Positions 8,581-57,914 of a stretch of 64,000 bases of DNA are shown in pieces. This DNA is from a virus: IMG/VR virus record IMGVR_UViG_3300012983_003032; one strand, 5' to 3'. The notes below the pieces were generated by a model. It was not told the DNA's origin. It did not search any database and worked only from the letters and a program-made list of their open reading frames with translations. Every line of letters begins with the position of its first letter. Within the stretch, counting starts at the first letter, position 1. Made by a program: the position numbers and the translations under genes.

Positions 8581-8700
8581 AGCTATGCTTGGCTAAAGAC
8601 CAAGCATATTCCCTAACATTTTAGCGTGTTAGGAGATTGTTTCGTGCATTACCCTTAACTCGCATCTGCGAGTGCCAGATTAGCCAACAATGAAGTTGAC
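8581..8700 (-). ncRNA. putative omegaRNA (reRNA) scaffold overlapping tnpB 3' end and right-end hairpins
   Basis: By analogy with characterised TnpB systems, the guide RNA derives from the tnpB 3' end plus RE. Two hairpins are present at 8585-8633. Not verified. Confidence 0.3.
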
Positions 8701-10064
8701 AACACGCTACCAGTGTCTTTTGACAGCTTCTTTTCAGAAGCCTTTTCCTGGCTTTCCTCAGCTTCCCTGAGTACTTTTATAGCTTCAGTTTTTATATTAA
8801 CTGCTGCATTTTTGTCTCGTTGATGAATTTGTCCACATTCAGGACAAATCCAATTCTCCAAATGGAATTTCTTAACTTCTGGATTCTTAAAACCACAACA
8901 AGAACAAGTTTGTGAAGAGGCAAAGAATTTGTTTACTTTGATGATATGGCATCCATATCTTTCGCCTTTCCATTTTAATTTAGAAACGAAAGTTGACCAA
9001 GAGATGTCTTGGTAATTCTTTGCGTTTCTTGAGCCTTTCATCATTCCTTGGATAGACAAATCTTCAATTCCGATAAGTTGGTTTTCCTTTGTCAGTCTCA
9101 AAGATTCTTTTTCTATCCAATCTAAACGACAATTTGCAATATGCTCTTCCAAAGAAGCAATTTTGATTCTAATTTTTTCTTTGTTTTTAGAATTTTTAAT
9201 TTTTCTTGCATATTGTCTTTGAAGATGAGAAAGTTGAGAAAGATGTTCTTGTTTTTGCTTTTTGAATCCATAATCAGCTTTAGCTGACTTTTCGTTCGAG
9301 TCTATGTACATATCATCACAGTCAAAGTCTAAACCTATGACTTGGTTTTCGTCTAAGTCTTTAACTTTGACTTTCTGCTTAAAGTCTAAATTGACTTCAA
9401 ACAAAATTGTGATGTAATATTTTCCGTTAGGTGTTCTTGAGCAAGTGTATGAACAAACTTTAGTTCTGTTTTTATACCATTTTGGTAAGTTTCTGTGAGA
9501 AAACTTAATTTTCCCAATTTTGGGAAGTTCTACAGTTTTAGAGTTCCAATCTAAGAAGTTTTGTTTCATCTGTGAGTCTTTGAAGGAATTTTTAGCTTTC
9601 TTGGAATGGAATTTTGGCTTTTCTGATTTTCCGGAAAAGAAATTGCTATAAGCAGTTCTTAAATTCATAACTGCATTTGCTTTTCCTTGACCATTAGCTT
9701 CCTTCAAAAAAGGAAATTGTTGAGTCAATTCTGAAACTTTTGGTTCGTGGTATTTCTTATATTCAGAATTCGTTATTTTTCTAATAGCTTCAAGTTCGGC
9801 CTTTAGATTTTTGATTTCTTGCTTATTTTCTTTTGAATTTTTTTGCAGCTCTTCGAGCTTTTGAACTTTTTCGTAATAGTCAAATTCTTTTCTTAATGGA
9901 ACTATGGCGTTTTCGTAGAATTGATTTTTTGAATTTAAGAGGTAGTTGTAGATGAATCTAACACAACCAAAAGTCTTGTCCAATTTAGACTTTTGTTCTT
10001 GAGATGGGTTTAGTCTGAGCTTAAGTGCTAAATTTACACTTCTGTAACTAATTGTATTAGACAT
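8655..10064 (-). CDS. tnpB: TnpB (IS605 OrfB) RuvC-like RNA-guided endonuclease homolog
   Basis: 469 aa. RuvC-I (IGLDFD), RuvC-II (IGIEDL), zinc finger CSCCGF...CPECG and RuvC-III (HQRDKNAAVNI) in canonical order. Confidence 0.9.
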   Translation of the reverse strand: MSNTISYRSVNLALKLRLNPSQEQKSKLDKTFGCVRFIYNYLLNSKNQFYENAIVPLRKEFDYYEKVQKLEELQKNSKENKQEIKNLKAELEAIRKITNSEYKKYHEPKVSELTQQFPFLKEANGQGKANAVMNLRTAYSNFFSGKSEKPKFHSKKAKNSFKDSQMKQNFLDWNSKTVELPKIGKIKFSHRNLPKWYKNRTKVCSYTCSRTPNGKYYITILFEVNLDFKQKVKVKDLDENQVIGLDFDCDDMYIDSNEKSAKADYGFKKQKQEHLSQLSHLQRQYARKIKNSKNKEKIRIKIASLEEHIANCRLDWIEKESLRLTKENQLIGIEDLSIQGMMKGSRNAKNYQDISWSTFVSKLKWKGERYGCHIIKVNKFFASSQTCSCCGFKNPEVKKFHLENWICPECGQIHQRDKNAAVNIKTEAIKVLREAEESQEKASEKKLSKDTGSVLSTSLLANLALADAS

Positions 10065-11794: not shown

Positions 11795-13498
11795 ATGGCA
11801 AAGTCACAGAAAAAAATTAAAGAATGTAAACATAATGGCACTCGTTTTCCAGACCTTTTTAAGAGTAGAGGATTTACTCTTGCGGGTGTGTCACTTTATA
11901 ACAGTGATGTTGACTCTGCAGAAGAAATGCTTTGGCATTATGCAGCAAAGTTAGACACAGACTATGTTAAGAATGAAGTTTTTAACAAAAACTTTTATTT
12001 GTGTCTTAAAGAACAACTTCCTGAAACTTTAAGAAATATAAAGTTTCCTGATGGATTTATGTCTGTTCTTACAGAAATGAAGAAGTTGCAGGAAAAAGAA
12101 AAAGAAGAAAAAACACAGTATAAAAAAGACCATAAAGAAGAACTTAAAAAAGAGGCAGAAGACCTTAAAGAAGAATATGGATATGCAATTCTTAATGGTG
12201 AAAAACAGCCTCTTATGTCAAATTTGGTAGAAGGCCCTGGGATTTTTATTGCTCGTGGAGATGCACCCCTTCTTGGTATGTGGAAATACCGTACTATGCC
12301 AGAAGATGTAACAATTAACTATATTGGACCAAAAGAAGAAACTCCAAAAGCACCTGAAGGACATCATTGGAAGAAAGTAACTAATAATCAGGTATATTAT
12401 ATTGCTTCTTATGAAGTAGATATCGGACACATTACAACAAAGAATAAAGAAATTCGTTTTGGTAGTGGTTCTTCTGTAAAGGCTGATGCAGACCAAAAGA
12501 AGTTTGATAAGGCAGTAAATCTTTTACAGCATAAAAAAGAAATGGAACAGTATATTCGTGAGAACCTTACAAACCCTGACCCTAAAATTGCTGAGTGTGC
12601 TCTTATTTCTTGGTTATTGCAAGAAACAGGTATTCGTATAGGTAATTCTAAAAATGTCGAAATTGAAGCCGATACTGTTGGGGCGTCTACTTTGAAAAAA
12701 GAAAATATTTGGGCAGATGACGGAAAACTTTATCTTAATTTTATTGGTAAAGATTCGATTGTTTATAAAAATGAAATTGAAGTACCAAAGTATATTGAAA
12801 CTGCAATTAATCGAAAAGTTAAAAAGGCTAAAGATGGTGAACAGATTTTCAGTGTAGACTCAAATGATGTTAACAAATTCTTAGGAGCTTGTGTGGAAGG
12901 ATGTACTCCAAAGTTGTGGCGTACTGCAATTGCAACTGAACTTCTTGTAAATGCCTTTAAGGACCAACACGTTAAAAAGTCTATGACTGTAACTGAAAAA
13001 CTTCGTGCTTTTGACCTTGCAAATCTTGAAGTTGCGAAAAAATTAAATCATAAAAAAGCTGTATCAAAGAATTATGACTCACAGATTGAAAAGTTGGATT
13101 CTACTATTGAATCAGATGAGAATAAGTTTAATGAACTTAAAATTAAATTAACTGCTGAAATTAAAGAGCTTGATAAAAAAATTAAAAAAGCAAAAGAACT
13201 TGGTCTTGATAGAAATGTAAAATCTTTTAAGGAAACTAAAAAGAAAAAACAGGAACGTCTTACAAAGGCAGAAGAAAGTCTTAAAAACAAAAAGTTTAAG
13301 AGAGAATTCAAAGAACAGACAATGGATATTGCCATTGGTACGTCAAGAACAAATTATTGTAGTCCAAAAATTGCTTATAGTATCTGTAAGGACTTGGATA
13401 TTCCAATTGAAAAGATTTATTCTAAGTCTCTTTTGGAAAAGTTTAAGTGGGCAGAAAATGTAAGTAAGGATTATTGGAGAAAGTACCCAGATGTATAG
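11795..13498 (+). CDS. type IB DNA topoisomerase, eukaryotic (nuclear TOP1)-like with linker domain
   Basis: Recalled human TOP1 segments align along the protein: LKEEYGYAILNG...EGPGIFIARGDAPLLGMWKYRTMPEDVTINY with the TOP1 core; ADTVG and FIGKDSI; KLWRTAIATELL with KVFRTYNAS; and the catalytic-Tyr region AIGTSRTNYCSPKIAYSICKDLDIPIEKIYSKSLLEKFKWA with [41 protein letters not shown]. A ~100-aa coiled-coil linker precedes the active-site Tyr. Confidence 0.9.
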   Translation: MAKSQKKIKECKHNGTRFPDLFKSRGFTLAGVSLYNSDVDSAEEMLWHYAAKLDTDYVKNEVFNKNFYLCLKEQLPETLRNIKFPDGFMSVLTEMKKLQEKEKEEKTQYKKDHKEELKKEAEDLKEEYGYAILNGEKQPLMSNLVEGPGIFIARGDAPLLGMWKYRTMPEDVTINYIGPKEETPKAPEGHHWKKVTNNQVYYIASYEVDIGHITTKNKEIRFGSGSSVKADADQKKFDKAVNLLQHKKEMEQYIRENLTNPDPKIAECALISWLLQETGIRIGNSKNVEIEADTVGASTLKKENIWADDGKLYLNFIGKDSIVYKNEIEVPKYIETAINRKVKKAKDGEQIFSVDSNDVNKFLGACVEGCTPKLWRTAIATELLVNAFKDQHVKKSMTVTEKLRAFDLANLEVAKKLNHKKAVSKNYDSQIEKLDSTIESDENKFNELKIKLTAEIKELDKKIKKAKELGLDRNVKSFKETKKKKQERLTKAEESLKNKKFKREFKEQTMDIAIGTSRTNYCSPKIAYSICKDLDIPIEKIYSKSLLEKFKWAENVSKDYWRKYPDV

Positions 13499-23246: not shown

Positions 23247-23275
23247 TAAAAGCCCCTAAAAAGGGGCTTTTTTCA
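23247..23275. terminator. bidirectional intrinsic terminator (agcccct-aaaaa-aggggct + T-run)
   Basis: Between convergent genes. Confidence 0.6.
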
Positions 23276-24832: not shown

Positions 24833-25051
24833 TTGTCACAGGTTGTAAAAGTAATCGTAGAGGACACAGGTCATCCTGAAAAAGACCTTGAACGAGCTCT
24901 ACGTAAATTCCGAAAGGAAGAAGAAGCCGAAGACATTCTTAATGAAATTAAGAAACGTCAGTATTTTACAAAACCTTCTGCTATAAAACATGAACAGAAG
25001 AAACATTCAGCACACAAGGCTGAATTAGAAAAAAAAGAAAAAGGAAGGTGA
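24833..25051 (+). CDS. rpsU: ribosomal protein bS21 homolog (phage-encoded)
   Basis: MSQVVKVIVEDTGHPEKDLERALRKFRKEEEAEDILNEIKKRQYFTKPSAIKHEQKK parallels E. coli bS21 ([47 protein letters not shown]). TTG start at 24833 with AAGAGGTGA SD; the table ORF from 24800 is an upstream TTG extension. Confidence 0.75.
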   Translation: MSQVVKVIVEDTGHPEKDLERALRKFRKEEEAEDILNEIKKRQYFTKPSAIKHEQKKHSAHKAELEKKEKGR

Positions 25052-25238: not shown

Positions 25239-26162
25239 TTGGAAACAGTTAAAGTGAAAATGTCAGATGGAAAAGAAATTGTATTAAACAAATTTCTACC
25301 ATCTAAAAAAATTAAAGCTGTAATAGTATTACATCACGGTCAAACAGAGCACTCTTTAAGATATACTCATTTTGCAGATTTCTTAAACAAAAATGGTATA
25401 GCATTGTATGCTCACGACGGAAGATGTCATGGTCAATCCGTAGATAAAATCGAAGATTTGGGTTACTTAGACTACAATAAAGGGTTTGATACAGTAACTT
25501 CGGATTTGCATACTATTATTGAAACTTGCCGTAAAGATTTACCTGACGTTAAAGTTTTTATTGCAGGACACTCATTTGGTTCTTTTATTGTTCAAAATTA
25601 TATTGAAAAATATAAAGCAGATAATGAAAACTTCGGTGGTGCAATATTATTAGGTTCTGCAGGACCAAAACCATTCTTAATGTTTGCAGGTATTTTACTA
25701 GCAAAAGTAGTTACATTTTTCAAAGGTAAAAAAGGGATAAGTAAATTACTCCATAAAGTAATGCACGGTTCTTATAATGACCATTTCCCTGGTGAGGGTG
25801 AAAATGCTTGGTTGACTCGCGATAAAGAAATTCAAAAGGCATTTGAAGATGACCCTAGATGTGGATTTGAACCTACAAACGCATTTAGACATACATTCTT
25901 AAAAGGTTTATTTAACATCCATAGACAAAAGAACCTTGCTAAAATAGATGTGGATTTACCAATTTTAATTATGTCTGGTACAGAAGACCCAGTAGGTGAC
26001 TATGGTAAATCTGTAGATAAATTGGTATCAGCATACAAAGATTATAGAATCAAATCACTTAAAGTAAAAATGTATAAAGACGCAAGACACGAACTCTTAA
26101 ACGAGTTGAATAAAGATGAAGTTATGAAAGACCTTTTAGATTGGGTTAAAGAAAAACTTTAA
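25239..26162 (+). CDS. alpha/beta-hydrolase, lysophospholipase / monoacylglycerol-lipase family
   Basis: VLHHGQTEHSLRYTHFADFL...HDGRCHGQS (HG oxyanion region), nucleophile elbow GHSFGS, and later Asp/His. TTG start at 25239 after GGGGG SD (alternative ATG 25260); the table ORF from 25119 is an extension. Confidence 0.75.
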   Translation: METVKVKMSDGKEIVLNKFLPSKKIKAVIVLHHGQTEHSLRYTHFADFLNKNGIALYAHDGRCHGQSVDKIEDLGYLDYNKGFDTVTSDLHTIIETCRKDLPDVKVFIAGHSFGSFIVQNYIEKYKADNENFGGAILLGSAGPKPFLMFAGILLAKVVTFFKGKKGISKLLHKVMHGSYNDHFPGEGENAWLTRDKEIQKAFEDDPRCGFEPTNAFRHTFLKGLFNIHRQKNLAKIDVDLPILIMSGTEDPVGDYGKSVDKLVSAYKDYRIKSLKVKMYKDARHELLNELNKDEVMKDLLDWVKEKL

Positions 26163-26169
26163 AGTAAAA

Positions 26170-26197
26170 GTCCTAAGGGTTCCTTAGGACTTTTTTA
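26170..26197. terminator. bidirectional intrinsic terminator (gtcctaagg-gtt-ccttaggac + TTTTTT)
   Basis: 9-bp perfect stem between convergent genes. Confidence 0.65.
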
Positions 26198-27023: not shown

Positions 27024-30000
27024 ATGAAATCATTTCGTCTTATATTTGTAGACCAAGATGAAAGCTATACAGTACAAACTGTTACTAGCCCTATTAAAGG
27101 TTTCATTTCAGTACGTGCCCCTAAAGGTACAACTGAAGCAATGTATTTTGAATACGGAAATGAAAAGGCAATAGATGCTATGATAGGTCTTGGTACTGCT
27201 GATTGGCCTGATATTAAAGAGGCAGTGGCATTTAACAGGTCTTATGGACTTTATATTTCTGCACCACCAGGAAATTGTGAAGACTACCCTACATATTATG
27301 GTGGATGTTATTTAACAACAAAAGGTTTATTTAACTTCTGGAGAGTAAATGACCCAGACGAACCTTCTTTTGATATTCAAGTTTACCCAGGATTTGAAAA
27401 TGTAGACTATGATGAAACTTTTGCTAAGTCAGAAATTGATGTTGTAGATATCAATACTGAGGCAGGAAAATCTTCTATTATTAAGATTACAAATATCGAC
27501 GCAAGAGTTTTCCAGAGAATGTCTTACTTTACTCTTAAATGTTGGGCAGACACTTCTACAAGAATTGGTGAAAATGAAGAAATTAAATATCACTTGGTAA
27601 ACGGAAAGATTTTCTCAGTTTATGACGACGAAGATTCTGAAATTCAAGCAGGTTTCTATGAACTTACAAGTGACGGTACTTATAATATCATTTTAGGTGC
27701 AACCGCAATTACTTCTCAAGACGATATCGTTCCAATTGATAAAAACATTACTACAGTTGTTGTTGTAACACCTTCTGCTACTAACGGTGGAGAAACTACT
27801 ACAGTAAGTTCTTTCTCTAGAGCAAGATTTGTAAGTACTTATAAATTAAAAGAAGGAAGATTCTTCTATAAAGATAAGGCTTGCACTGTACAGGCTGGTA
27901 TTTCTTCAACTGACGCAGATGGAAACACTATTACTGAGGATATGCCATCTACAGTATATGTAAAGGCAGCAGATATTGACACATTAAATGTAACAAAATA
28001 TACACCATCAAAGAATACTTTGAGTACACCTCATGTACCATACTTTGATATGACAAAGTTCTTGGGTGAGTATAACGCATTTGATATTTCAACAATTTAT
28101 TCTGATGATATTGAAGGACTTACAGGTCTTGAACTTATTAGATATCTTATCTTGAATGGATGTAGTAGTCTTGTTACTCTTAAAGGTAAGTTCAATAATG
28201 CAAATGTTGAAAAATACATTACTCCTACAGTTGGTCTTGTAGATAGAATCTACTGGAATATCAATGTAAAGAATGACTGTTTTATGTACGTTTCTCAGAA
28301 GTCACCTAACGAAACTCCTACTTCTATCACTATTAGTAACATTGGTTATGATAAGTATAAGTATGATATGCACGTTAGCTACATTTTGAAATCTGACTTC
28401 GACAAATTCAGAGACGGCTCTGTTGCACCTGACGGATTTATCAAAGCTGTTATTGCAAGTAATGCTGACGGTATTATTGACGTAGTAACTTCTACAGCTG
28501 AAAAAGACTTCTTAACACCAAGTACTAACCTCCATGCACTTTATCAGTATAGTACTGTAACAGGTGAATGGGTAGACGTTACACCAAATTATAAGACTAA
28601 GACTTTCTATATTGACGGACCTTTGGATTGTAAAGGTGTTAATGATAATAGTACAGTTAATGCTTTCTGTAAGTATACAATCTGGAAGATTGTAAATGTA
28701 AAAAAACCTGACTCATTTGAACATGAAACATATCAGATGAAGAATGGTGGAAACTATCCTTTGAAGTCTGATATTAACTATAACACTGTAACTATTTCTT
28801 GTAAAGAAAAAGTTTACCCAGGTACTTATACAACTGGTGGTACACATTATGGTTCTTTGAACCCAGAAGGTGTAGATGCAGCAGGAACAAATATTTATTT
28901 CCCTAACGTTCTTCCTAATGAAGAAACTGCTACATTCTTTAATGTTTATCCAGTTCATACTTTAGAGGAATTAGGTTGTGTAAATGATAATGGATTCTAT
29001 ACTGGTGTTAAGATTGTTGACCCAATCGGACCAGAACAAGATACATATACATTTACTATTAAAGGTCAGAGACCTATGACAGCCGCAGTTCAGGCTAACA
29101 TTGATGCAGGTACTGTAGGATGTGCTTGGACAACTAACGAAGTTTATGGTACTAGAGTAGACGCAATCTTCGAGGCTGCAATTAATGACTCTATTATTGA
29201 ATGTCAGGACGATATCTATGACGATGCACTTGTTATTATGGAATGTTCTGGACAGGAAGTATTTAAGTCTGCTTTAATGTCTTTAAGACAATCTCACCGT
29301 GATACAAGTACTATTATCTCTCCAAAGATTATTACTAAGGCAGAGTTTAATAATCCAAATACTATTGTAGTAAATGGTCGTGTAACAGGTACTGCACAGT
29401 ATATCGGTGAATTCAAGATGTATGACTCTAACACAGGTAAGTATTACTGGTGTCAACCAATTGGTGACGTTGGTGCTATGCTTGCTCGTATTATGGAAAA
29501 GAAATATGGTGGAATTGCACCTGCGGGTACAAATGATAGTCAGGGTCTTGGTGGTGTTCTTCCAAGAGCAGTTCTTGCTGCAAAGTGGAACTTCAAAGAT
29601 TCTCAGTTACAGATTCTTGACGGAAAAGGTTTGAACCCTATCACATTTGACTCAAAATATGGTCTTATGATGCAAGGTCAGAAAACAACTCAAGACCCAG
29701 ATAACGTAACTGACTGGTCTTACCTTGGACACTCAATGTCATTTGACTTGTGTAAACGTGAAATCCGTGATAACGTAATGGTTAAACAAGTTCACAAACG
29801 TATTAGTGATAACTACTTCACTATTCGTGAAAAGCAGGTTAAGGCTATCCTTGACAAACGTACAACTGGTAATGACCCTATTTGGGCACTTGCTACTGTT
29901 GACGTTGCTGGTGTTAATACTCCTTCAACTATGGCACAGAGAAAGTTCTGTATCAAGGTTAAAGTTAAAGTGTACGTGTACAGCGATTTTGTGGAACTCA

Positions 30001-30026
30001 CATTCGTTACGCTCGGACAGGAGTAA
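27024..30026 (+). CDS. large virion structural protein (1000 aa), beta-rich
   Basis: Strong SD AAGGAGA. T/S/N/V-rich composition typical of capsid/sheath/fibre proteins. Unusual C-terminus KVKVKVYVYSDFVELTFVTLGQE. Confidence 0.6.
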   Translation: MKSFRLIFVDQDESYTVQTVTSPIKGFISVRAPKGTTEAMYFEYGNEKAIDAMIGLGTADWPDIKEAVAFNRSYGLYISAPPGNCEDYPTYYGGCYLTTKGLFNFWRVNDPDEPSFDIQVYPGFENVDYDETFAKSEIDVVDINTEAGKSSIIKITNIDARVFQRMSYFTLKCWADTSTRIGENEEIKYHLVNGKIFSVYDDEDSEIQAGFYELTSDGTYNIILGATAITSQDDIVPIDKNITTVVVVTPSATNGGETTTVSSFSRARFVSTYKLKEGRFFYKDKACTVQAGISSTDADGNTITEDMPSTVYVKAADIDTLNVTKYTPSKNTLSTPHVPYFDMTKFLGEYNAFDISTIYSDDIEGLTGLELIRYLILNGCSSLVTLKGKFNNANVEKYITPTVGLVDRIYWNINVKNDCFMYVSQKSPNETPTSITISNIGYDKYKYDMHVSYILKSDFDKFRDGSVAPDGFIKAVIASNADGIIDVVTSTAEKDFLTPSTNLHALYQYSTVTGEWVDVTPNYKTKTFYIDGPLDCKGVNDNSTVNAFCKYTIWKIVNVKKPDSFEHETYQMKNGGNYPLKSDINYNTVTISCKEKVYPGTYTTGGTHYGSLNPEGVDAAGTNIYFPNVLPNEETATFFNVYPVHTLEELGCVNDNGFYTGVKIVDPIGPEQDTYTFTIKGQRPMTAAVQANIDAGTVGCAWTTNEVYGTRVDAIFEAAINDSIIECQDDIYDDALVIMECSGQEVFKSALMSLRQSHRDTSTIISPKIITKAEFNNPNTIVVNGRVTGTAQYIGEFKMYDSNTGKYYWCQPIGDVGAMLARIMEKKYGGIAPAGTNDSQGLGGVLPRAVLAAKWNFKDSQLQILDGKGLNPITFDSKYGLMMQGQKTTQDPDNVTDWSYLGHSMSFDLCKREIRDNVMVKQVHKRISDNYFTIREKQVKAILDKRTTGNDPIWALATVDVAGVNTPSTMAQRKFCIKVKVKVYVYSDFVELTFVTLGQE

Positions 30027-30044
30027 ATTGTTAATTTAACAATT
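30026..30044. promoter_or_regulatory. perfect 19-bp palindrome AATTGTTAATTTAACAATT, nested in gtggaa...ttccac
   Basis: Read directly. Lies immediately after the stop of the 1000-aa ORF and upstream of the HNH ORF. Confidence 0.4.
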
Positions 30045-30197
30045 CCACTACAGCCTACTAATTAGTGTTAATATATATACTAAGGAGTAGGCTTCAAGTT
30101 TAAAACTTATAATGATTTAATAACCTTTGCAGTAAGCAGAAATTGGAATAGGAACTCATATGAATATTTAGAGTTACATCATATTTTACCAAAAAAT

Positions 30198-31166
30198 ATG
30201 GGAGGAAACGATAGTCCTGAAAATTTGGTTTTTTTAAAAGTTGGGGAACACGTTGAAGCACATTATTTATTTGCAATGGAGCATCAATGGAATAAAAAAA
30301 TATATTATGCAAACTTAAATGCAGCTTGGATTATTATACATGGAAAAACTTTAGGTAGTAATATTAGAAGTCAATATATATCAGACTGGTTAAAAGATAA
30401 GGACAATCAAGATAAATTATCTGAAATAAAATTATTATTACGTAATCAACCCAGACCAAAAAGAAATATTGAAAAACAACCCCATTATTGGATGGCCCTA
30501 AATACTAGGTATCCAAGTTATGTTACAGAAAAGAGTATTTTTAAGTATTTACAAACAGGGTATATAAAACTAGACGACTGCCCTATATGTCATAATCCTA
30601 ATTCTGAAACTTCTTTTGCTTGTTGCAAAGAACATGAAGAACAATATATACTACAGAAAAAACAAGAGTATAAGACCCTCAAGGCAGAACAAACAAGAGA
30701 GTCTTGGACTAGACAAGAGGATAGAGAACTTCGTATTAAGAACAGCTTGGGTAAGAATACTGAAAAAGGAAGGTTCTTTTGGGCAACCAATGGAGTAGAA
30801 GACATTCAAATATTCAAGGGTGAAGATATTCCTGACGGATATATTAGAGGGCGTTCTAAGAATATTCCTACTCCTAATCATACAGACGAATCAAAAAGAA
30901 AACAGTCTGAACGTAGAAAAAATTGTTGTTATGTATGGAAGGATGATGTCCCTTGTAAAGAAATACAAAAGTCTGAATTAGAGGAATATTTAAGTCAAGG
31001 TTGGCATAGAGGAAGAAAACCTGGGACAGTAAATAGACCTAAAGGATTTAAACAACCTCAAATGGCTTGGGTAAATAAAAATGGTGAAATATTAAAGATA
31101 AGAGCAGATGACTTAGACAAGTACATATCTAATGGATATTCCAGGGGCAGAGGTTCTAAAGTTTAA
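30198..31166 (+). CDS. HNH homing-endonuclease-like protein; conserved HNH motif is encoded upstream of the first ATG
   Basis: In-frame upstream sequence (open from 30084) reads ...YEYLELHHILPKN-M-GGNDSPENLVFLKVGEHVEAH (H-H...N...H HNH signature). There is no ATG/GTG/TTG in frame before 30198. The rest is K/R-rich with CxxC ... C ... H pairs. Confidence 0.65.
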   Translation: MGGNDSPENLVFLKVGEHVEAHYLFAMEHQWNKKIYYANLNAAWIIIHGKTLGSNIRSQYISDWLKDKDNQDKLSEIKLLLRNQPRPKRNIEKQPHYWMALNTRYPSYVTEKSIFKYLQTGYIKLDDCPICHNPNSETSFACCKEHEEQYILQKKQEYKTLKAEQTRESWTRQEDRELRIKNSLGKNTEKGRFFWATNGVEDIQIFKGEDIPDGYIRGRSKNIPTPNHTDESKRKQSERRKNCCYVWKDDVPCKEIQKSELEEYLSQGWHRGRKPGTVNRPKGFKQPQMAWVNKNGEILKIRADDLDKYISNGYSRGRGSKV

Positions 31167-31279
31167 TTGTATTTTTATTTTTAAAAATAATTATTTTTTT
31201 AACTACCCCACACGTAAAATCAAATATTTAAGATTTGTTAATATATTTTTATAAATATAAAATTTTGGAGGTTAAAGCA

Positions 31280-32773
31280 ATGTTATTTATTGCAGGTATT
31301 GTAGCAGTAGTACTTTTGATATTACTGTTTATTACATCTTACATTAAGGCTTCACCTGATGAGGCTTTAATTGTTTCAGGTCTTCGTAAAAAACCAAAGA
31401 TTATTATTGGTAAGTCGGGATTTAGAATTCCTTTCTTGGAAAAGAAAGACCGACTCTCTCTTAAACTTATCCCTATTGATGTAAAAACCAGCTCGTCTGT
31501 ACCGACTGCAGACTATATCAACATTAATGTTGACGCAGTAGTAAACGTAAAAGTTTCAGATGACTTTGAAAAAATTAATCTTGCAGCACAGAACTTCTTG
31601 AATAAAGATACTGAAAAAATTGGTGCAATTGCCCGCGAGGTACTTGAGGGTAATATGCGTGAGATTGTAGGACAGATGACATTGGAACAGATGGTTTCTG
31701 ACCGACAAACTTTTGCCGAAAAAGTAAAGGATAATGCAGCTCCAGACCTTGCAAAGATGGGATTGGATATTGTTTCTTTTAATGTTCAGAACTTTATTGA
31801 TAATAATAATGTTATTGAAGACCTTGGTGTTGATAACATTACTAAAATTCGTAAAAAGGCTGCAATTGCAAAGGCACAGTCTGAAAAGGAAATTGCTGTT
31901 GAACAAGCTAAGGCTCGTAAAGAGGCAAATGACGCAAAGATTGAGTCTGATACACAGATTGCTATTAAAGAAAATGCACTTGCATTGAAGAAGTCTGAAT
32001 TGGACGCAAAAGCGGGTACTGAAAAGGCAAAGGCAGATGCAGCATATAAGATTCAACTTGAGGAACAGAGGAAAACTCTTGAAATTACAACTGCAAACGC
32101 AAATATTGCAAAGCAGGAAAAAGAGGTAGAAATCCGTCGTAAAGAAGTAGAAGTCCAGGAACAAACTCTTGACGCACAAATCAAGAAACAAGCAGAGGCA
32201 GATAAGTATGCAGCATTACAAAAAGCCGACGCAGATTTGTATACTCGTCAGAAAGAGGCTGAGGCAAGAGCATTTGAACTTCAAAAACAAGCTGAGGCAG
32301 AGGCTTATCAGAGACAGAAGAAAGCAGAGGCAGATAAAGCTGCAATGGAAAATGAAGCAACTGGTAAGAAAGCTCTTGCAGAGGCTGTTCAGGCACAAGG
32401 TGAGGCAGAAGCCGAGGCAATTAAAGCTAAACTTGTTGCAGAAGCTGATGGTATGCGTGAAAAGGCAGAGGCACTTAAAGAATATGGTGATGCTGCTAAA
32501 CAACAAATGCAACTTGACGCACTTAAAGTTTACTTTGAACAGTTGCCAAAGATTGCAGAGGCAGCAGGTAAAGCATACCAGAGTGTTGACAAGATTTATA
32601 TGTACGGTGGAGACTCTTCAAAGTTGCAAAGTGATATTATGAAGAATGTTACACAGGTTTCAGAGGGTCTTGGTCAGACAATGGGTATTGACCTTAAAAC
32701 ACTTCTTGGTGCTTTCGTAGGTAGTAAACTTGCTGGCAAAGGCACAGACTTAGAATTGCCTAAGACAGAATAA
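31280..32773 (+). CDS. SPFH (band-7/flotillin-like) membrane protein with long coiled-coil EA-rich tail
   Basis: N-terminal TM MLFIAGIVAVVLLILLFI, then a YqiK/flotillin-like SPFH core (ALIVSGLRKKPKIIIGKSGFRIPFLEKKDRLSLKLIPIDV...INVDAVVNVKV), then a ~250-aa KAEA-repeat coiled coil. ATG at 31280 after GGAGG; the table ORF from 31235 is an extension. Confidence 0.75.
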   Translation: MLFIAGIVAVVLLILLFITSYIKASPDEALIVSGLRKKPKIIIGKSGFRIPFLEKKDRLSLKLIPIDVKTSSSVPTADYININVDAVVNVKVSDDFEKINLAAQNFLNKDTEKIGAIAREVLEGNMREIVGQMTLEQMVSDRQTFAEKVKDNAAPDLAKMGLDIVSFNVQNFIDNNNVIEDLGVDNITKIRKKAAIAKAQSEKEIAVEQAKARKEANDAKIESDTQIAIKENALALKKSELDAKAGTEKAKADAAYKIQLEEQRKTLEITTANANIAKQEKEVEIRRKEVEVQEQTLDAQIKKQAEADKYAALQKADADLYTRQKEAEARAFELQKQAEAEAYQRQKKAEADKAAMENEATGKKALAEAVQAQGEAEAEAIKAKLVAEADGMREKAEALKEYGDAAKQQMQLDALKVYFEQLPKIAEAAGKAYQSVDKIYMYGGDSSKLQSDIMKNVTQVSEGLGQTMGIDLKTLLGAFVGSKLAGKGTDLELPKTE

Positions 32774-32942: not shown

Positions 32943-33725
32943 ATGATAAAAATTTTACCTTGGACTTATAAAGACCCTTTAAACATGATAGGGGCATGTG
33001 CAGGATACTGTTGGGGAAGTAATACTACTAATCCCGAAGAAAATATAAAACGTGCAAAGTTTTGTATTAAAAGTAATCATGGTCGAGTTGAGGAATTTCC
33101 CGATATTTATTGTACAATAGACGGATATTCTGCGCGTTGTATTCGTGAATTATCAAGACATTGTGTGGGAACAACTTTTTTACAAAGTAGTACCAGATAT
33201 GTTGACGCAAAGGATATGAATCCTAGAGAGGACTTTTTTTATCCGTATGGTCTTGATACGACCCAAACAGACGTTCTTTTTAAAGGTTATAAGAAAATAA
33301 TGGAAACTTATAATGAATTAGAAAGTTTAGATGTAAATAAAGAAGATGCTGCAAATATTTTACCATTAGGAATGAATACTGACATAGTATGGAAATTAAA
33401 TGTTAGGGCATTAATCCATTTTATGGAGTTAAGACTTTGCAGTCGTGCATATAAAGAGATTCGTCAATTATGTATTGAACTTAAAAATAAGATGTCTGTA
33501 TATTCCGAAGAATGGAAATGGATTGCAGATAACTATTTTGTTCCGTCCTGCAAAACTCGTGGGTATTGTATTGAGGCTCAGTGTTGTGGTGTAGCACCTA
33601 AAGGTCTTAAAGGCCTTCAAGAAAAAAATATTACTGATTTTGTAAAATACTTATCTGAAAATACTACTGTGGATATAACTACAATAAAGGATATTATTCC
33701 AAGCTTTTTGGAGGAACCTAAATGA
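32943..33725 (+). CDS. thyX: flavin-dependent thymidylate synthase ThyX
   Basis: ThyX signature RHRx7S present as LSRHCVGTTFLQSSTRY; size 260 aa. Confidence 0.85.
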   Translation: MIKILPWTYKDPLNMIGACAGYCWGSNTTNPEENIKRAKFCIKSNHGRVEEFPDIYCTIDGYSARCIRELSRHCVGTTFLQSSTRYVDAKDMNPREDFFYPYGLDTTQTDVLFKGYKKIMETYNELESLDVNKEDAANILPLGMNTDIVWKLNVRALIHFMELRLCSRAYKEIRQLCIELKNKMSVYSEEWKWIADNYFVPSCKTRGYCIEAQCCGVAPKGLKGLQEKNITDFVKYLSENTTVDITTIKDIIPSFLEEPK

Positions 33726-34667: not shown

Positions 34668-34673
34668 TTCTTA

Positions 34674-34702
34674 AAGGCACCCAATTTGGGTGCCTTTTTT
34701 AA
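34674..34702 (+). terminator. intrinsic terminator (aggcaccca-attt-gggtgcct + TTTTTT)
   Basis: Perfect stem plus T-run. Confidence 0.65.
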
Positions 34703-36954: not shown

Positions 36955-36984
36955 AAGGCTGGGTGAAGTCCCAGCCTTTTTTAT
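36955..36984 (+). terminator. intrinsic terminator (ggctggg-tgaagt-cccagcc + TTTTTT)
   Basis: Perfect 7-bp GC stem plus T-run. Confidence 0.65.
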
Positions 36985-56240: not shown

Positions 56241-57914
56241 ATGGGAAAAATCCTAAAATTTGGAAATGACGCAAGAAGTTTAGTTCTTGACGGTATTAAT
56301 GAACTTGAAGAGGCAGTAACTTGTACACTTGGCCCAAAAGGACGTACTGTTATTTTAGACAGTGGTAATGGTCATCCTATTGTTACTAAAGACGGTGTTT
56401 CTGTTGCAAAGTTCATTGACTTTTCTGATAAATATAAAAATATTGGTGCAAGTTTCATACAAGAAGCAGCAAGAAAAACCAATGCTGTTGCAGGTGATGG
56501 TACTACAACTGCAACTCTTATCACATCGGAATTATGTAAAGCAGGACATGAATTGGTTTCTCAAAAATTTGACGCAGTTGACGTTAAAAAAGGATTTGAG
56601 AAAGCTAAAGATGCAGTAATTGAAGTATTAAATACTCAAAAAAGAGTTATTTCTGAGGAAGACGATATTTTACACATTGCAACTATTTCTGCAAATAATG
56701 ACGAAGAAATTGGTCAATTTATCTGTGACGCTTTTACACATATTGGAGAAGGTGGTATTGTTGGTGCAATGGACGCACATAACAGAACAGGAAAGACATC
56801 TATTACATACTCTAATGGTATGGAGTTTTTGAAGGGATTTTTCTCTTCTTCGGTAGTTAATACCGATATGGAAACTTGTTGTTTTGAAAATCCTAGATAC
56901 CTTATTTATGGTAATAAGGTTGATGATTTTAAGAGTATTGCACAAATTATACAGATGGCTAACAAAAATAACGAAAGTCTTGTTATTATCGCCCCTTATT
57001 TTGAAGACACATTCCAAGAAAACTTTATTACAAATGTTGAAAAAGGATATATTAGTGCAGTAGCAGTTGTTGCCCCTGGAAATAGTAGAGACGATATAAA
57101 TGAAAACCTTGGTGATATTGCTGCTTTGGTAGGTGCAACTATTATTGAGGGAAAGGGTAAAGACTCAATCTCTATAGATAAGTTTGAATACAAACATTTA
57201 GGTTCTTCTGAGTCAATTACAGTTGCTCGTGGTAAAACAACTATCACAGGTGGTAAGGGCACTAAGGAGGATATAGACAAAAGGGTTGCAGATATTAAAA
57301 AACTTATTGAAGGTAGTGAGGCAGACGAAACATTTAAGACAGATTATGAATTAGATATGTTAAAAGAACGTATTGCAAAACTTTCAGGTGGTATAGCAAC
57401 AATTCATATTGGTGCATTCTCAGATATCGAAGCAAAGGAAAAGAAAGATAGATATGAAGATGCTATCAATGCCGTAAATGCTGCAATTCGTGACGGTATT
57501 ATCGCAGGTGGTGGTGCTGGTCTTTTACATGCTGTAAAGACTGTTGCAAATAGTCATAAACCATTAGAAAACCCTACACAGGAAGTGGGATTCCAAAAAT
57601 TTCTTAAAATTATGGAAATGCCAGCAAGAAGAATTATCGAGTCTACTGGTAAAGACCCAGGTTATTATGCAGAAAAGATTAAGGAAAGTGATAATCTCTC
57701 TTATGGATTTAATGCAAAACTTGAAGAATTTTCAGACGACCTTTATAGGGACGGAGTAGTAGACCCAGTAAAAGTAACTGAGGCAGCATTGTCATACGGT
57801 ACTTCTGTAGCTGGAACTTTTATTACTTCTTCATGTGTTATTACTTCTGACGTTTATAATTGTAGGGTTTCTGCAAATGACCCTATTATGAGTGAGGAGG
57901 TAATATATGAGTAA
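56241..57914 (+). CDS. groEL: GroEL/Hsp60-family chaperonin
   Basis: KFGNDAR...LGPKGRTVIL...PIVTKDGVSVAKFIDF...AGDGTTTATL...ATISANNDEEIG tracks E. coli GroEL over the equatorial domain. 557 aa. No GroES-like gene adjacent. Confidence 0.9.
   Translation: MGKILKFGNDARSLVLDGINELEEAVTCTLGPKGRTVILDSGNGHPIVTKDGVSVAKFIDFSDKYKNIGASFIQEAARKTNAVAGDGTTTATLITSELCKAGHELVSQKFDAVDVKKGFEKAKDAVIEVLNTQKRVISEEDDILHIATISANNDEEIGQFICDAFTHIGEGGIVGAMDAHNRTGKTSITYSNGMEFLKGFFSSSVVNTDMETCCFENPRYLIYGNKVDDFKSIAQIIQMANKNNESLVIIAPYFEDTFQENFITNVEKGYISAVAVVAPGNSRDDINENLGDIAALVGATIIEGKGKDSISIDKFEYKHLGSSESITVARGKTTITGGKGTKEDIDKRVADIKKLIEGSEADETFKTDYELDMLKERIAKLSGGIATIHIGAFSDIEAKEKKDRYEDAINAVNAAIRDGIIAGGGAGLLHAVKTVANSHKPLENPTQEVGFQKFLKIMEMPARRIIESTGKDPGYYAEKIKESDNLSYGFNAKLEEFSDDLYRDGVVDPVKVTEAALSYGTSVAGTFITSSCVITSDVYNCRVSANDPIMSEEVIYE

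What the first reader, a model, noticed from the sequence alone, without database searches (positions are those of the whole stretch)
30027..31166. HNH endonuclease whose catalytic HNH motif precedes the first start codon; flanking 19-bp palindrome
The frame is open from 30084 and encodes YEYLELHHILPKN before the first Met. No ATG/GTG/TTG exists in that frame upstream, although an SD (TAAGGAG, 30081-87) is present. Either the gene uses a rare ATA/ATT start or it is a decaying homing endonuclease.

It sits directly after a 1000-aa structural gene with an odd C-terminus and a perfect palindrome (AATTGTTAATTTAACAATT). This is the sort of context where free-standing homing endonucleases or intron/intein remnants insert.
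Basis: partly seen in the sequence, partly recalled or inferred. Interest (0 to 1): 0.5.

Follow-up and report, generated by a model that had tools for sequence, protein, structure and literature searches.

The report
Homing endonuclease gene missing its start codon
A selfish "homing endonuclease" gene parked behind the tail-sheath gene of an uncultivated giant phage has, in this one strain, had its ATG start codon mutated to AAG, so it is most likely a freshly silenced copy; this is an ordinary stage in the life of such genes.

Summary
The frame is open from 30084, the His-His of the HNH motif (30177-30182) lies before the first ATG (30198), and no ATG/GTG/TTG lies upstream in frame. The sequence is not an artefact: contigs from at least five other metagenome assemblies match it, four at 100%.

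Relatives explain it. All other sampled alleles start MFKTYNDL with ATG (once TTG) 8 nt after the AAGGAG ribosome-binding site. In this strain a 6-bp patch (30092-30097) carries a 2-nt deletion plus T>C and T>A. TTTTTATG became TTCAAG, so the start codon is now AAG (30096-30098).

The rest of the 356-codon ORF is intact and was under strong purifying selection until very recently (dN/dS 0.03 against the nearest ATG allele). The gene is a Mob-like free-standing HNH homing endonuclease. It sits behind the contractile tail-sheath gene across a clade of jumbo phages, is absent in more distant relatives, and is mosaic between alleles.

The sheath C-terminus is conserved, not odd. There is no intron or intein. 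A conserved, covarying hairpin (30052-30093) buries the ribosome-binding site and, in ATG alleles, resembles the sheath terminator. The 19-bp palindrome (30026-30044) is a weak hairpin after the stop codon.

Most likely this is a very young null allele. It is a known kind of element and of low interest.

The parts
27024..30026 (+). Contractile tail-sheath gene (1000 aa). Its C-terminus is native and conserved.
   Evidence: An AlphaFold2 model of the C-terminal 510 aa (pLDDT 82) matches sheath-containing tail structures of T4 and phage KP1, AFP and R-pyocin. Foldseek E-values run from 1e-13 to 1e-9 with probability 1.00. Orthologues are 58-96% identical and end the same way.
30026..30044 (.). 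Perfect 19-bp palindrome AATTGTTAA-T-TTAACAATT, directly after (and overlapping) the sheath stop codon.
   Evidence: As RNA it is weak (-5.3 kcal/mol, z -0.75). Relatives carry different small inverted repeats at the same position. In L013 and L015 the repeat is followed by a run of five T.
30052..30093 (+). Conserved two-tier RNA hairpin. The arms are 30052-30066 and 30079-30093. The outer stem is AGCCUACU/AGUAGGCU and the apical region is AT-rich (TATATATA). It encloses the ribosome-binding site.
   Evidence: Folding energy is -20.6 kcal/mol, z -4.6; relatives give -20 to -27 kcal/mol. RNAalifold predicts 16 pairs, 8 of them with compensatory double changes. 95.5% of cells are paired and 0 of 500 shuffles reach the observed values; slid controls give 27-50%. 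The inverted repeat was also found.
30082..30087 (+). Shine-Dalgarno sequence AAGGAG, 8 nt upstream of the former start codon and partly base-paired inside the hairpin.
30092..30098 (+). Mutation patch. A 2-nt deletion after 30092, T>C at 30095 and T>A at 30097 turn ancestral GGCTTTTTATG into GGCTTCAAG. The patch destroys the ATG (AAG is now at 30096-30098), shortens the U-tract from 5 to 2, and throws the GTG at 30065 out of frame.
   Evidence: Alignments to L001 (95.8% nt) and L106 (97.8% nt). All other alleles have ATG or TTG at this position.
30096..31166 (+). Mob-like free-standing HNH homing-endonuclease ORF of 356 codons plus stop. It has no canonical start.
   Evidence: dN/dS is 0.17 against L001 and 0.034 against L106.
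30177..30263 (+). HNH catalytic motif. His28-His29 are at 30177-30182, Asn43 at 30222-30224, His52 at 30249-30251 and His56 at 30261-30263. The His-His pair lies upstream of the first ATG.
   Evidence: These columns are invariant in the family alignment. A profile of the family aligns to the HNH motifs of McrA and Cas8f-HNH in PDB.
30198..30200 (+). First in-frame ATG (Met35 of the full protein). This is where gene callers start the 322-aa product. No Shine-Dalgarno sequence precedes it.
   Evidence: The Met is nearly invariant in the family, so it is not a newly created start.
30579..30635 (+). Cys/His cluster CPICH-x9-FACCKEH, which looks like a zinc finger. It marks the recombination boundary between the N-terminal nuclease module and the C-terminal DNA-binding module.
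   Evidence: C, P, I, C, F, A, C and H are invariant. The mosaic break point falls here. NUMOD3 hits occur in 3 of 21 members.
31280..32773 (+). Downstream SPFH/flotillin gene, the right-hand neighbour of the endonuclease gene.
   Evidence: Pfam Band_7 E 3e-26 and Flot E 1.5e-7.

Best explanation
Window 30096-31166 is a free-standing, Mob-like HNH homing-endonuclease gene. It sits directly behind the contractile tail-sheath gene of an uncultivated jumbo phage of about 425 kb.

In relatives the gene starts with ATG 8 nt after AAGGAG. A conserved hairpin precedes it and base-pairs the ribosome-binding site. A U5 tract follows the hairpin, so it looks like the sheath gene's intrinsic terminator.

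Inferred normal regulation: most sheath transcripts stop there, and in read-through transcripts the ribosome-binding site is masked. The endonuclease is therefore made only sparingly, as for T4 I-TevI and Aeh1 mobE.

In this strain a single 6-bp patch (a 2-nt deletion, T>C and T>A) has three effects:
- It converts the ATG to AAG.
- It removes the only other in-frame canonical start, the GTG at 30065.
- It shortens the U-tract.

The most likely consequence is that the full-length nuclease is no longer translated. On this reading the copy is a very young null allele, the first step of the usual degeneration of a homing endonuclease gene once it is fixed. The rest of the ORF has not yet had time to decay.

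Shown:
- the identity of the gene
- its conserved position
- the ancestral ATG
- the reality of the mutation
- the covarying hairpin
- past purifying selection

Inferred: loss of translation, the terminator and translational-repressor roles of the hairpin, and homing activity.
For: Identity of the gene:
- PHROG 655 'homing endonuclease', E 3e-14.
- Pfam HNH is hit by 21 of 21 family members.
- A family profile hits HNH domains in PDB.
- tblastn finds Mob-like homing endonuclease genes, including Aeh1 mobE.

The ancestral start was ATG:
- 20 homologues start MFKTY/MYRTY....
- DNA alignments show ATG exactly where the window has AAG.
- 13 of 13 other listed members of the 90% cluster are 356 aa long with Met1.
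- 81 of 82 more distant N-domain relatives have a canonical start.

The allele is real: contigs from five other assemblies carry the same start region, four of them 100% identical to the window.

The lesion is young:
- There are no stops or frameshifts.
- dN/dS is 0.034 against L106 (19 synonymous, 3 non-synonymous). The chance of so few non-synonymous changes under neutrality is 1e-11.
- dN/dS is 0.17 against L001.

Behaviour typical of a homing endonuclease gene:
- It lies directly 3' of the sheath gene in L001, L002/3, L011-L015, L017, L021, L022, L025 and L106.
- It is absent at that site in L016, L104 and L105.
- It is mosaic. Against L011 the sheath is 96% identical but the nuclease module only 38.5%.
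- Other alleles are truncated.

Hairpin and terminators:
- The hairpin is supported.
- Relatives without the endonuclease gene carry a classic terminator after the sheath stop.
- The genome uses canonical intrinsic terminators: 16 found against 7.7 expected.

Literature:
- RBS-sequestering hairpins regulate T4 I-TevI/II/III, T4 segB and Aeh1 mobE (PMC2988022).
- In E. coli, codons other than AUG, GUG, UUG and four near-cognates initiate at about 0.01-1% of AUG (bioRxiv 10.1101/063800).
Against: - Apart from the start patch the ORF shows no decay at all.
- By my hand comparison of the difference lists, changes specific to the window lineage are about 10 synonymous to 2 non-synonymous. Selection on the ORF therefore persisted until very recently, or still persists.
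- The ribosome-binding site is retained at ideal spacing (8 nt) from AAG, so low-level initiation cannot be excluded.
- Three changes within 6 bp, against about 2% background divergence, is a non-random cluster. It could reflect selection rather than accident.
- Neither loss of translation nor homing activity was measured.
- All carriers of the AAG allele are essentially one clone, so its long-term fate is unknown.
Confidence: 0.6

Rival explanations
1. Attenuated but functional allele. The full-length nuclease is still made at a very low level by initiation at AAG (30096), helped by the well-placed AAGGAG. This would be a natural way to throttle a toxic endonuclease, and selection would keep the ORF intact.
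For: - The ribosome-binding site is retained 8 nt upstream.
- The ORF is intact, with dN/dS 0.03-0.17.
- Nearly all codons give detectable initiation in E. coli.
- Another allele, L017, has the weaker TTG at the same position.
- Homing endonuclease genes are known to be kept at low expression.
Against: - AAG belongs to the codon class that initiates at only about 0.01-1% of AUG, and the ribosome-binding site is also sequestered in the hairpin.
- The AAG is not conserved. All other cluster members have ATG, as do 81 of 82 distant relatives.
- The allele is clonal, so an intact ORF is equally expected from a very recent lesion.
Confidence: 0.22
2. New function as a nuclease-dead DNA-binding protein. 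Translation starts at the internal ATG (30198) and gives a 322-aa product. It lacks His28-His29 but keeps the Cys/His cluster and the C-terminal DNA-binding repeats, so it could act as a repressor or as an immunity factor that protects the target site.
For: - Gene callers predict exactly this 322-aa product.
- The C-terminal module is intact and conserved.
- I-TevI is documented to double as a transcriptional autorepressor.
Against: - No Shine-Dalgarno sequence precedes 30198 (the upstream sequence is CCAAAAAAT).
- A small inverted repeat (30180-30187 / 30193-30200) overlaps this ATG.
- Met35 is ancestral and nearly invariant, so it was not created for this purpose.
- The 34 codons upstream show no decay, but the time elapsed is too short for that to be informative.
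Confidence: 0.1
3. Sequencing or assembly artefact at a T-rich run. The real phage would have the ATG.
For: The change sits next to a T5 homopolymer in relatives.
Against: - The same sequence was assembled in at least five samples by different pipelines (MEGAHIT-style ENA contigs and Logan; the product is also listed from JGI).
- The change is two substitutions plus a 2-nt deletion, not a simple homopolymer miscount.
Confidence: 0.03
4. Remnant of a group I intron or an intein inserted in the sheath gene, with the palindrome as a junction scar.
For: The sheath ORF and the HNH ORF happen to be in the same reading frame. The endonuclease gene abuts a structural gene.
Against: - Four in-frame stops separate the two ORFs.
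- The sheath protein is colinear with orthologues up to a conserved C-terminus, including orthologues without the endonuclease gene.
- No Rfam intron is found at gathering threshold or at E<=1.
- The gene downstream of the HNH ORF is an independent flotillin gene.
- The palindrome is not conserved in sequence among relatives.
Confidence: 0.01

Closest known systems
Mob family of free-standing HNH homing endonucleases of T4-like phages (T4 MobA-E, Aeromonas phage Aeh1 MobE)
   Same: - The N-terminal HNH nuclease domain is similar. tblastn gives 28% identity over 177 aa to Aeh1 mobE (E 2e-4) and 34% over 128 aa to 'Mob-like HNH homing endonuclease' genes (E 2e-8). PHROG 655 also matches.
- The gene is free-standing, in an intergenic slot next to a conserved essential gene.
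- Its distribution among relatives is sporadic.
- An RNA hairpin masks the ribosome-binding site, as described for Aeh1 mobE (PMC2988022).
   Different: - Sequence identity is low.
- The C-terminal module differs: a CPICH...FACCKEH Cys/His cluster followed by three W-x-TNG...GW-x-RGR-like repeats.
- It sits behind the tail-sheath gene of a jumbo phage, not within the nrd genes.
- The hairpin also looks like the upstream gene's terminator.
- This allele has lost its start codon.
- Cleavage and homing are untested.
Translational control hairpins of T4 I-TevI, I-TevII, I-TevIII and segB
   Same: A stable stem-loop includes the Shine-Dalgarno sequence about 8 nt upstream of the start, so read-through transcripts are poorly translated. 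An AT-rich box resembling TATAAATA lies in the hairpin. It is exactly TATAAATA in L002 and TATATATA in the window.
   Different: No promoter has been mapped here. A T4-type late start site placed from that box would fall inside the Shine-Dalgarno sequence, so the 'late promoter frees the RBS' step is not established. The transcription system of this phage is unknown.
Defunct or degenerating homing endonuclease genes (for example T4 I-TevIII) and the invasion-fixation-degeneration-loss cycle of Goddard and Burt
   Same: The element shows signs of being at the start of degeneration. Related alleles are C-terminally truncated (about 275 and 321-327 aa) and one is truncated at the N-terminus. The precedent of a defunct phage endonuclease gene comes from the title and abstract of PMC2790892. 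The cycle model is from my own knowledge.
   Different: Here the only lesion is loss of the start codon. The coding sequence is still pristine.
Genes with conserved non-AUG starts (for example infC AUU)
   Same: There is a good ribosome-binding site followed by a non-canonical codon.
   Different: In those genes the unusual codon is conserved among orthologues and has a regulatory role. Here it is confined to one clone and every orthologue has ATG or TTG. AAG is also not among the better near-cognate start codons.

Membership tests
HNH (beta-beta-alpha-metal) nuclease superfamily | His-His ... Asn ... His ... His motif in the right spacing, detectable by HNH profiles | tested here: met
   ELHHILPKNMGGNDSPENLVFLKVGEHVEAH, with H28, H29, N43, H52 and H56 in invariant columns. 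Pfam HNH scores 17.6 bits for the window protein, below the 21.4 cutoff, but 21 of 21 family members hit, best E 3e-7. A family profile aligns to the HNH motifs of McrA and Cas8f-HNH, E about 1e-4.
Mob-like free-standing HNH homing endonuclease genes of phages | Sequence relationship to annotated Mob/HNH homing endonucleases | tested here: met
   PHROG 655, E 3e-14. tblastn hits 693 phage records, including Aeh1 mobE and Mob-like genes, but covering only 36-77% of the protein at 26-34% identity.
Mob-like free-standing HNH homing endonuclease genes of phages | Free-standing ORF in an intergenic slot between conserved genes, not inside an intron or intein | tested here: met
   It lies between the sheath gene and the flotillin gene. 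It has its own ribosome-binding site. No intron RNA was found.
Mob-like free-standing HNH homing endonuclease genes of phages | Patchy presence among related genomes, with signs of lateral exchange | tested here: met
   Present after the sheath gene in 12 distinct related loci and absent in L016, L104 and L105. Phylogeny is incongruent: against L011 the sheath is 96% identical but the nuclease module only 38.5%.
Mob-like free-standing HNH homing endonuclease genes of phages | Site-specific cleavage of the allele that lacks the endonuclease gene, followed by gene conversion (homing) | not testable with these tools
   This needs a purified enzyme or phage crosses.
Mob-like free-standing HNH homing endonuclease genes of phages | A translatable ORF with a start codon | tested here: not met
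   No ATG, GTG or TTG lies between the stop at 30081 and the catalytic His-His. AAG stands where the ATG should be. The window copy is therefore filed as a start-less, probably null, allele of this family.
RBS-sequestering regulatory hairpin (type of T4 I-TevI and Aeh1 mobE) | A stable, evolutionarily conserved stem-loop that base-pairs the Shine-Dalgarno sequence | tested here: met
   Folding energy is -20.6 kcal/mol, z -4.6. 8 of 16 pairs show compensatory changes, 95.5% of cells are paired, and 0 of 500 shuffles reach the observed values. G-U pairs favour RNA of the + strand over a DNA-level palindrome. Distant relatives L022 and L025 have unrelated stems that bury the ribosome-binding site or the AUG.
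RBS-sequestering regulatory hairpin (type of T4 I-TevI and Aeh1 mobE) | An internal (late) promoter whose transcripts lack the 5' arm and so free the ribosome-binding site | tested here: inconclusive
   A TATAAATA-like box lies in the apical region. The sigma-70 scan finds nothing on the + strand there. The promoter type of this phage is unknown.
Intrinsic (Rho-independent) terminator of the sheath gene | A stable stem-loop followed immediately by a U-tract | tested here: inconclusive
   ATG alleles have the hairpin followed by U4-U6. The window has only UU before C. The simple scanner calls neither, because the stem is interrupted. Relatives without the endonuclease gene have textbook terminators at this position, and the genome uses such terminators.
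Group I intron-encoded or intein-encoded endonuclease | A ribozyme core around the ORF, or an in-frame insertion with splicing motifs in the host protein | tested here: not met
   Rfam finds nothing at gathering threshold or at E<=1. Four stops separate the ORFs. The sheath is colinear with orthologues that lack the endonuclease gene.
Genes with a dedicated non-canonical start codon | The non-AUG start is conserved among orthologues | tested here: not met
   Every other cluster member listed has Met1. One allele has TTG. 81 of 82 distant relatives have a canonical start.

The most novel reading that the evidence does not exclude
The 6-bp patch is adaptive rather than accidental. By shortening the U-tract it would turn the sheath terminator into a read-through site, raising expression of the downstream flotillin and ThyX genes. 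At the same time it would throttle the endonuclease to trace-level, AAG-initiated translation. The endonuclease gene would then persist as a selected, ultra-low-expression gene without any canonical start codon.
Probability: 0.1. Interest if true: 0.5.

Novelty: new member of a known kind. Interest (0 to 1): 0.22.

Why it matters
The practical lesson concerns annotation. Gene callers start this gene at the internal ATG and so predict a 322-aa protein that lacks the catalytic histidines. In the related allele L017 they likewise miss a TTG start.

Biologically, this is a clean snapshot of the first step of homing-endonuclease degeneration: the start codon is lost while the coding sequence is still pristine. 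It occurs in an uncultivated phage of about 425 kb.

The locus also shows that the T4-style 'hairpin over the ribosome-binding site' arrangement extends to homing endonuclease genes of distant jumbo phages. Here the hairpin appears to be merged with the terminator of the upstream tail-sheath gene.

None of this changes current understanding.

Tried and rejected
- **Phage database searches.** Megablast of 27024-31300 and tblastn of the sheath protein against 50,697 phage records found nothing. The phage has no deposited relative.
- **RNA families and tRNAs.** Rfam at gathering threshold over the whole window, Rfam at E<=1 over 29400-31500, and a tRNA scan gave nothing relevant.
- **Sequence-only identification of the sheath.** PDB sequence searches gave only a marginal Afp3 hit (E 0.22) and, with a profile, nothing. 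Pfam and PHROGs were also silent. Identification needed a structure prediction.
- **First structure job.** I re-ran it with database homologues.
- **Terminator scanner.** It does not call the hairpin in the window, L001 or L002. Its model requires an uninterrupted stem.
- **Metagenome scan with the family alignment.** It returned mostly distant proteins that share only the N-terminal nuclease domain. These were useful only as a background for start-codon usage.
- **Donor sequence for the mutated patch.** No convincing second copy of GGCTTCAAGTTTAA exists in the window.
- **Quasi-palindrome template switching.** T>A at 30097 does perfect the palindrome AAGTTT-A-AAACTT (30096-30108). This does not explain the deletion or the T>C change, so I left it as a remark.
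- **Read-through or frameshift from the sheath ORF or an upstream mini-ORF.** Rejected. There are four in-frame stops. The GTG at 30065 opens only a 12-codon ORF in another frame.
- **Alternative genetic code.** Rejected. Sheath genes of relatives end in TAA or TAG at the same position.
Full report
**1. The observation**

The HNH frame is closed by TAA at 30081-30083 and open from 30084 to the stop at 31164-31166. It reads GVGFKFKTYNDLITFAVSRNWNRNSYEYLELHHILPKN before the first ATG at 30198. No ATG, GTG or TTG lies in between. AAGGAG is at 30082-30087.

The palindrome AATTGTTAATTTAACAATT is perfect and lies at 30026-30044. It overlaps the last base of the stop codon of the 1000-aa ORF (27024-30026) and occurs once in the window.

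The window holds 11 perfect palindromes of this size, against 2.9 expected from first-order Markov simulations. Several of them follow stop codons. The class is therefore real, but one instance is not remarkable.

**2. The sequence is not an artefact**

The 322-aa product that gene callers predict from 30198 and the 1000-aa protein are both found on contigs from ERZ27246388, ERZ27246298, ERZ27246292, ERZ27246346 (a 425,174-bp contig) and Logan SRR6060192. Four of these contigs are 100% identical to the window over 4.8-9 kb. The fifth differs at two positions, both in the sheath gene. All read ...AGTAGGCTTCAAGTTTAAA.

**3. What happened to the start**

A protein search found 53 relatives, most of them 353-364 aa long and covering 97-99% of the extended ORF. 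All aligned ones begin MFKTYNDL, MYRTYNEL or similar. Their Met1 aligns with the Lys encoded by AAG at 30096-30098.

- The DNA of L001 (95.8% nt identity) and L106 (97.8%) reads GGCTTTTTATGTTTAAA where the window reads GGCTTCAAGTTTAAA.
- The differences are a 2-nt deletion, T>C at 30095 and T>A at 30097.
- More distant alleles (L002, L011-L015) also have TTTTT-ATG at this point. L017 has TTG there, and its gene caller also chose the internal ATG.
- Of the 15 listed members of the 51-member 90% cluster that contains the window protein, the other 14 are 356 aa long with Met1. The window's 322-aa call is a single sequence.
- Among 82 distinct, more distant N-domain relatives, 81 have a canonical start 25-35 codons upstream of the His-His. 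The exception, L076, looks like a frameshift in an A-run.

The non-AUG start is therefore a private, derived feature of one clone. In the ancestral arrangement an in-frame GTG (window 30065) also preceded the ATG. The 2-nt deletion puts it out of frame, so the patch removes every canonical start.

**4. State of the ORF**

There is no stop or frameshift in 356 codons.

| Comparison | Synonymous | Non-synonymous | dN/dS |
|---|---|---|---|
| HNH, window vs L001 | 28 | 23 | 0.17 |
| HNH, window vs L106 | 19 | 3 | 0.034 |
| Sheath 3' part, window vs L106 | 18 | 0 | 0 |

- For the L106 comparison, the chance of so few non-synonymous changes under neutrality is 1e-11.
- dS is 0.10 for both the HNH gene and the adjacent sheath segment.
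- I polarised the L106 differences by hand with L001 as outgroup, using the lists. About 10 synonymous and 2 non-synonymous changes (S286P, D296E) fall on the window lineage.

The gene was therefore under purifying selection until very recently. Either the start was lost a short time ago, or selection continues.

Three changes within 6 bp, against about 2% background divergence, point to one complex mutational event or to selection. The T>A change perfects a small palindrome, AAGTTT-A-AAACTT. I found no donor sequence for the patch.

**5. What the gene is**

- PHROG 655 'homing endonuclease' matches at E 3e-14.
- Pfam HNH is hit by all 21 family members, and NUMOD3 weakly by three.
- A family profile aligns to the HNH motifs of McrA and Cas8f-HNH.
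- tblastn against phage records finds 693 records. Annotated hits among the 25 listed include Aeh1 mobE and 'Mob-like HNH homing endonuclease' genes, at 26-34% identity.

By analogy with colicin E9 (my own knowledge), His28, His29, Asn43, His52 and His56 form the catalytic and metal-binding set. A product started at Met35 (30198) would lack His28-His29 and should be catalytically dead.

The C-terminal two-thirds carry an invariant CPICH...FACC.EH Cys/His cluster and three W-x-TNG...GW-x-RGR-like repeats.

**6. Context**

- **Upstream gene.** It is the contractile tail sheath. An AlphaFold2 model of its last 510 residues (pLDDT 82) matches sheath-containing tail structures of T4, KP1, AFP, PVC and R-pyocin, with Foldseek E 1e-13 to 1e-9.
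- **Sheath C-terminus.** It is conserved in orthologues, including ones without the endonuclease gene. It is not odd.
- **Where the endonuclease gene is present.** A homologue sits immediately 3' of the sheath gene in L001, L002/3, L011, L012, L013, L014, L015, L017, L021, L022, L025 and L106. This holds even where the next gene downstream differs.
- **Where it is absent.** L016, L104 and L105 lack it. In L016 and L104 the sheath gene is followed by a textbook intrinsic terminator.
- **Mosaic alleles.**

| Window compared with | Sheath identity | Nuclease module identity | C-terminal module identity |
|---|---|---|---|
| L011 | 96% | 38.5% | 93% |
| L002 | 60% | 78% | 61.5% |

The break point lies at the Cys/His cluster.
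- **Truncated alleles.** Several exist.

Patchy presence, cassette exchange and decayed copies are the usual behaviour of a free-standing homing endonuclease gene. No intron RNA was detected, and four in-frame stops separate the two ORFs.

**7. The intergenic RNA elements**

*(a) The palindrome at 30026-30044.* It folds only weakly as RNA (-5.3 kcal/mol, z -0.75). Relatives have different small inverted repeats at the same place. In L013 and L015 the repeat is followed by T5. I read it as a minor hairpin after the stop codon, or possibly a protein-binding palindrome. It is not an insertion scar.

*(b) The hairpin at 30052-30093.*
- It is a two-tier hairpin with outer stem AGCCUACU/AGUAGGCU. 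It folds at -20.6 kcal/mol (z -4.6), and at -20 to -27 kcal/mol in relatives.
- RNAalifold finds 16 pairs, 8 of them with compensatory double changes.
- 95.5% of cells are paired, 0 of 500 shuffles reach the observed values, and slid registers give 27-50%.
- G-U pairs favour an RNA structure on the + strand.
- The Shine-Dalgarno sequence is largely paired inside it.
- Distant relatives L022 and L025 have unrelated stems that bury the ribosome-binding site or the AUG.
- In all ATG and TTG alleles the hairpin is followed by U4-U6 and then the start codon. It therefore resembles the sheath gene's intrinsic terminator. The genome does use canonical terminators: 16 found against 7.7 expected in 20 kb.
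- The simple scanner does not call this hairpin, because the stem is interrupted.

The arrangement parallels the RBS-sequestering hairpins described for T4 I-TevI/II/III, T4 segB and Aeh1 mobE (PMC2988022). A TATAAATA-like box lies in the apical part, but an internal promoter is not established.

In the window the U-tract is reduced to UU-C. The same patch that kills the start codon probably also weakens termination.

**8. Interpretation**

- **Most likely (about 0.6).** A very young null allele of a Mob-like homing endonuclease gene. This is the first lesion of the well-known degeneration phase.
- **Attenuated allele (about 0.2).** Trace initiation at AAG. In E. coli, codons outside the canonical and near-cognate set initiate at about 0.01-1% of AUG (10.1101/063800).
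- **Nuclease-dead protein (about 0.1).** A 322-aa DNA-binding protein made from 30198.
- **Artefact or intron/intein remnant.** Effectively excluded.

**9. Verdict**

This is a new member of a known kind. It is useful as an annotation caution and as a tidy example, but not surprising. Interest is about 0.2.

Noticed in passing
window 11795-13498 (+): A full-length eukaryotic-type topoisomerase IB is encoded in this phage window. Pfam hits are Topoisom_I_N (E 7e-38), Topoisom_I catalytic core (E 3e-44) and Topo_C_assoc (E 2e-19). This is an unusual gene for a phage.
   Followed up: no
window 8655-10064 (-): A TnpB/IS605 OrfB-type protein sits inside the phage genome. It has HTH_OrfB_IS605, OrfB_IS605 and Cas12f1-like TNB domains.
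   Followed up: no
window 24833-25051 (+), 25239-26162 (+), 31280-32773 (+), 32943-33725 (+), 56241-57914 (+): The window carries several cell-like genes. They are a ribosomal protein S21 homologue (precomputed Pfam hit in L007 and L011), an alpha/beta hydrolase, an SPFH/flotillin protein, ThyX and a GroEL-type chaperonin. The source is an uncultivated jumbo phage of about 425-460 kb with no relative in the phage record collection.
   Followed up: partly
L017 1-300 (Logan DRR025072): A related endonuclease allele has TTG at the canonical start position, preceded by the compensated hairpin GCCTGC/GCAGGC and a run of six T. The gene caller nevertheless began the protein at the internal Met, so its product lacks the His-His pair, as in the window. 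This allele is also truncated at the C-terminus.
   Followed up: partly
L076 1-80 (Ga0233379_1006842): This was the only other relative among 82 without a canonical start. It appears to have one extra A in an A-run just after an ATG (ATGAAAAAATTATTATGAT). That is either a frameshifted copy or a homopolymer sequencing error.
   Followed up: partly
window 30579 region; L011 6001-7086; L002 8001-9062; P0013: The nuclease module and the DNA-binding module of this endonuclease family are shuffled between phages, with the break at the CPICH Cys/His cluster. P0013 combines an L011-type middle region with a C-terminal half that looks identical to the window's on visual comparison.
   Followed up: partly
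L014 6850-7350 (-); L015 6707-7108 (-); L002/L012/L013 DUF7487 genes: Relatives carry a second, short (166-aa) paralogue of the same HNH N-terminal domain about 2 kb downstream on the opposite strand. They also carry several DUF7487 genes and a GIY-YIG gene nearby. The sheath/capsid region of these phages therefore seems to collect mobile endonuclease genes.
   Followed up: no
window 26170-26190, 34673-34697, 36955-36978, 23248-23271: These are strong palindromic intrinsic terminators, with an A-tract, a GC-rich stem and a T-tract, some of them bidirectional. They lie between genes. The scan found 16 against 7.7 expected in 20 kb.
   Followed up: partly
window 30096-30108: The T>A change that destroys the ATG also perfects a small palindrome, AAGTTT-A-AAACTT. 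This hints at quasi-palindrome template switching as part of the mutational event. It does not explain the adjacent deletion or the T>C change.
   Followed up: partly
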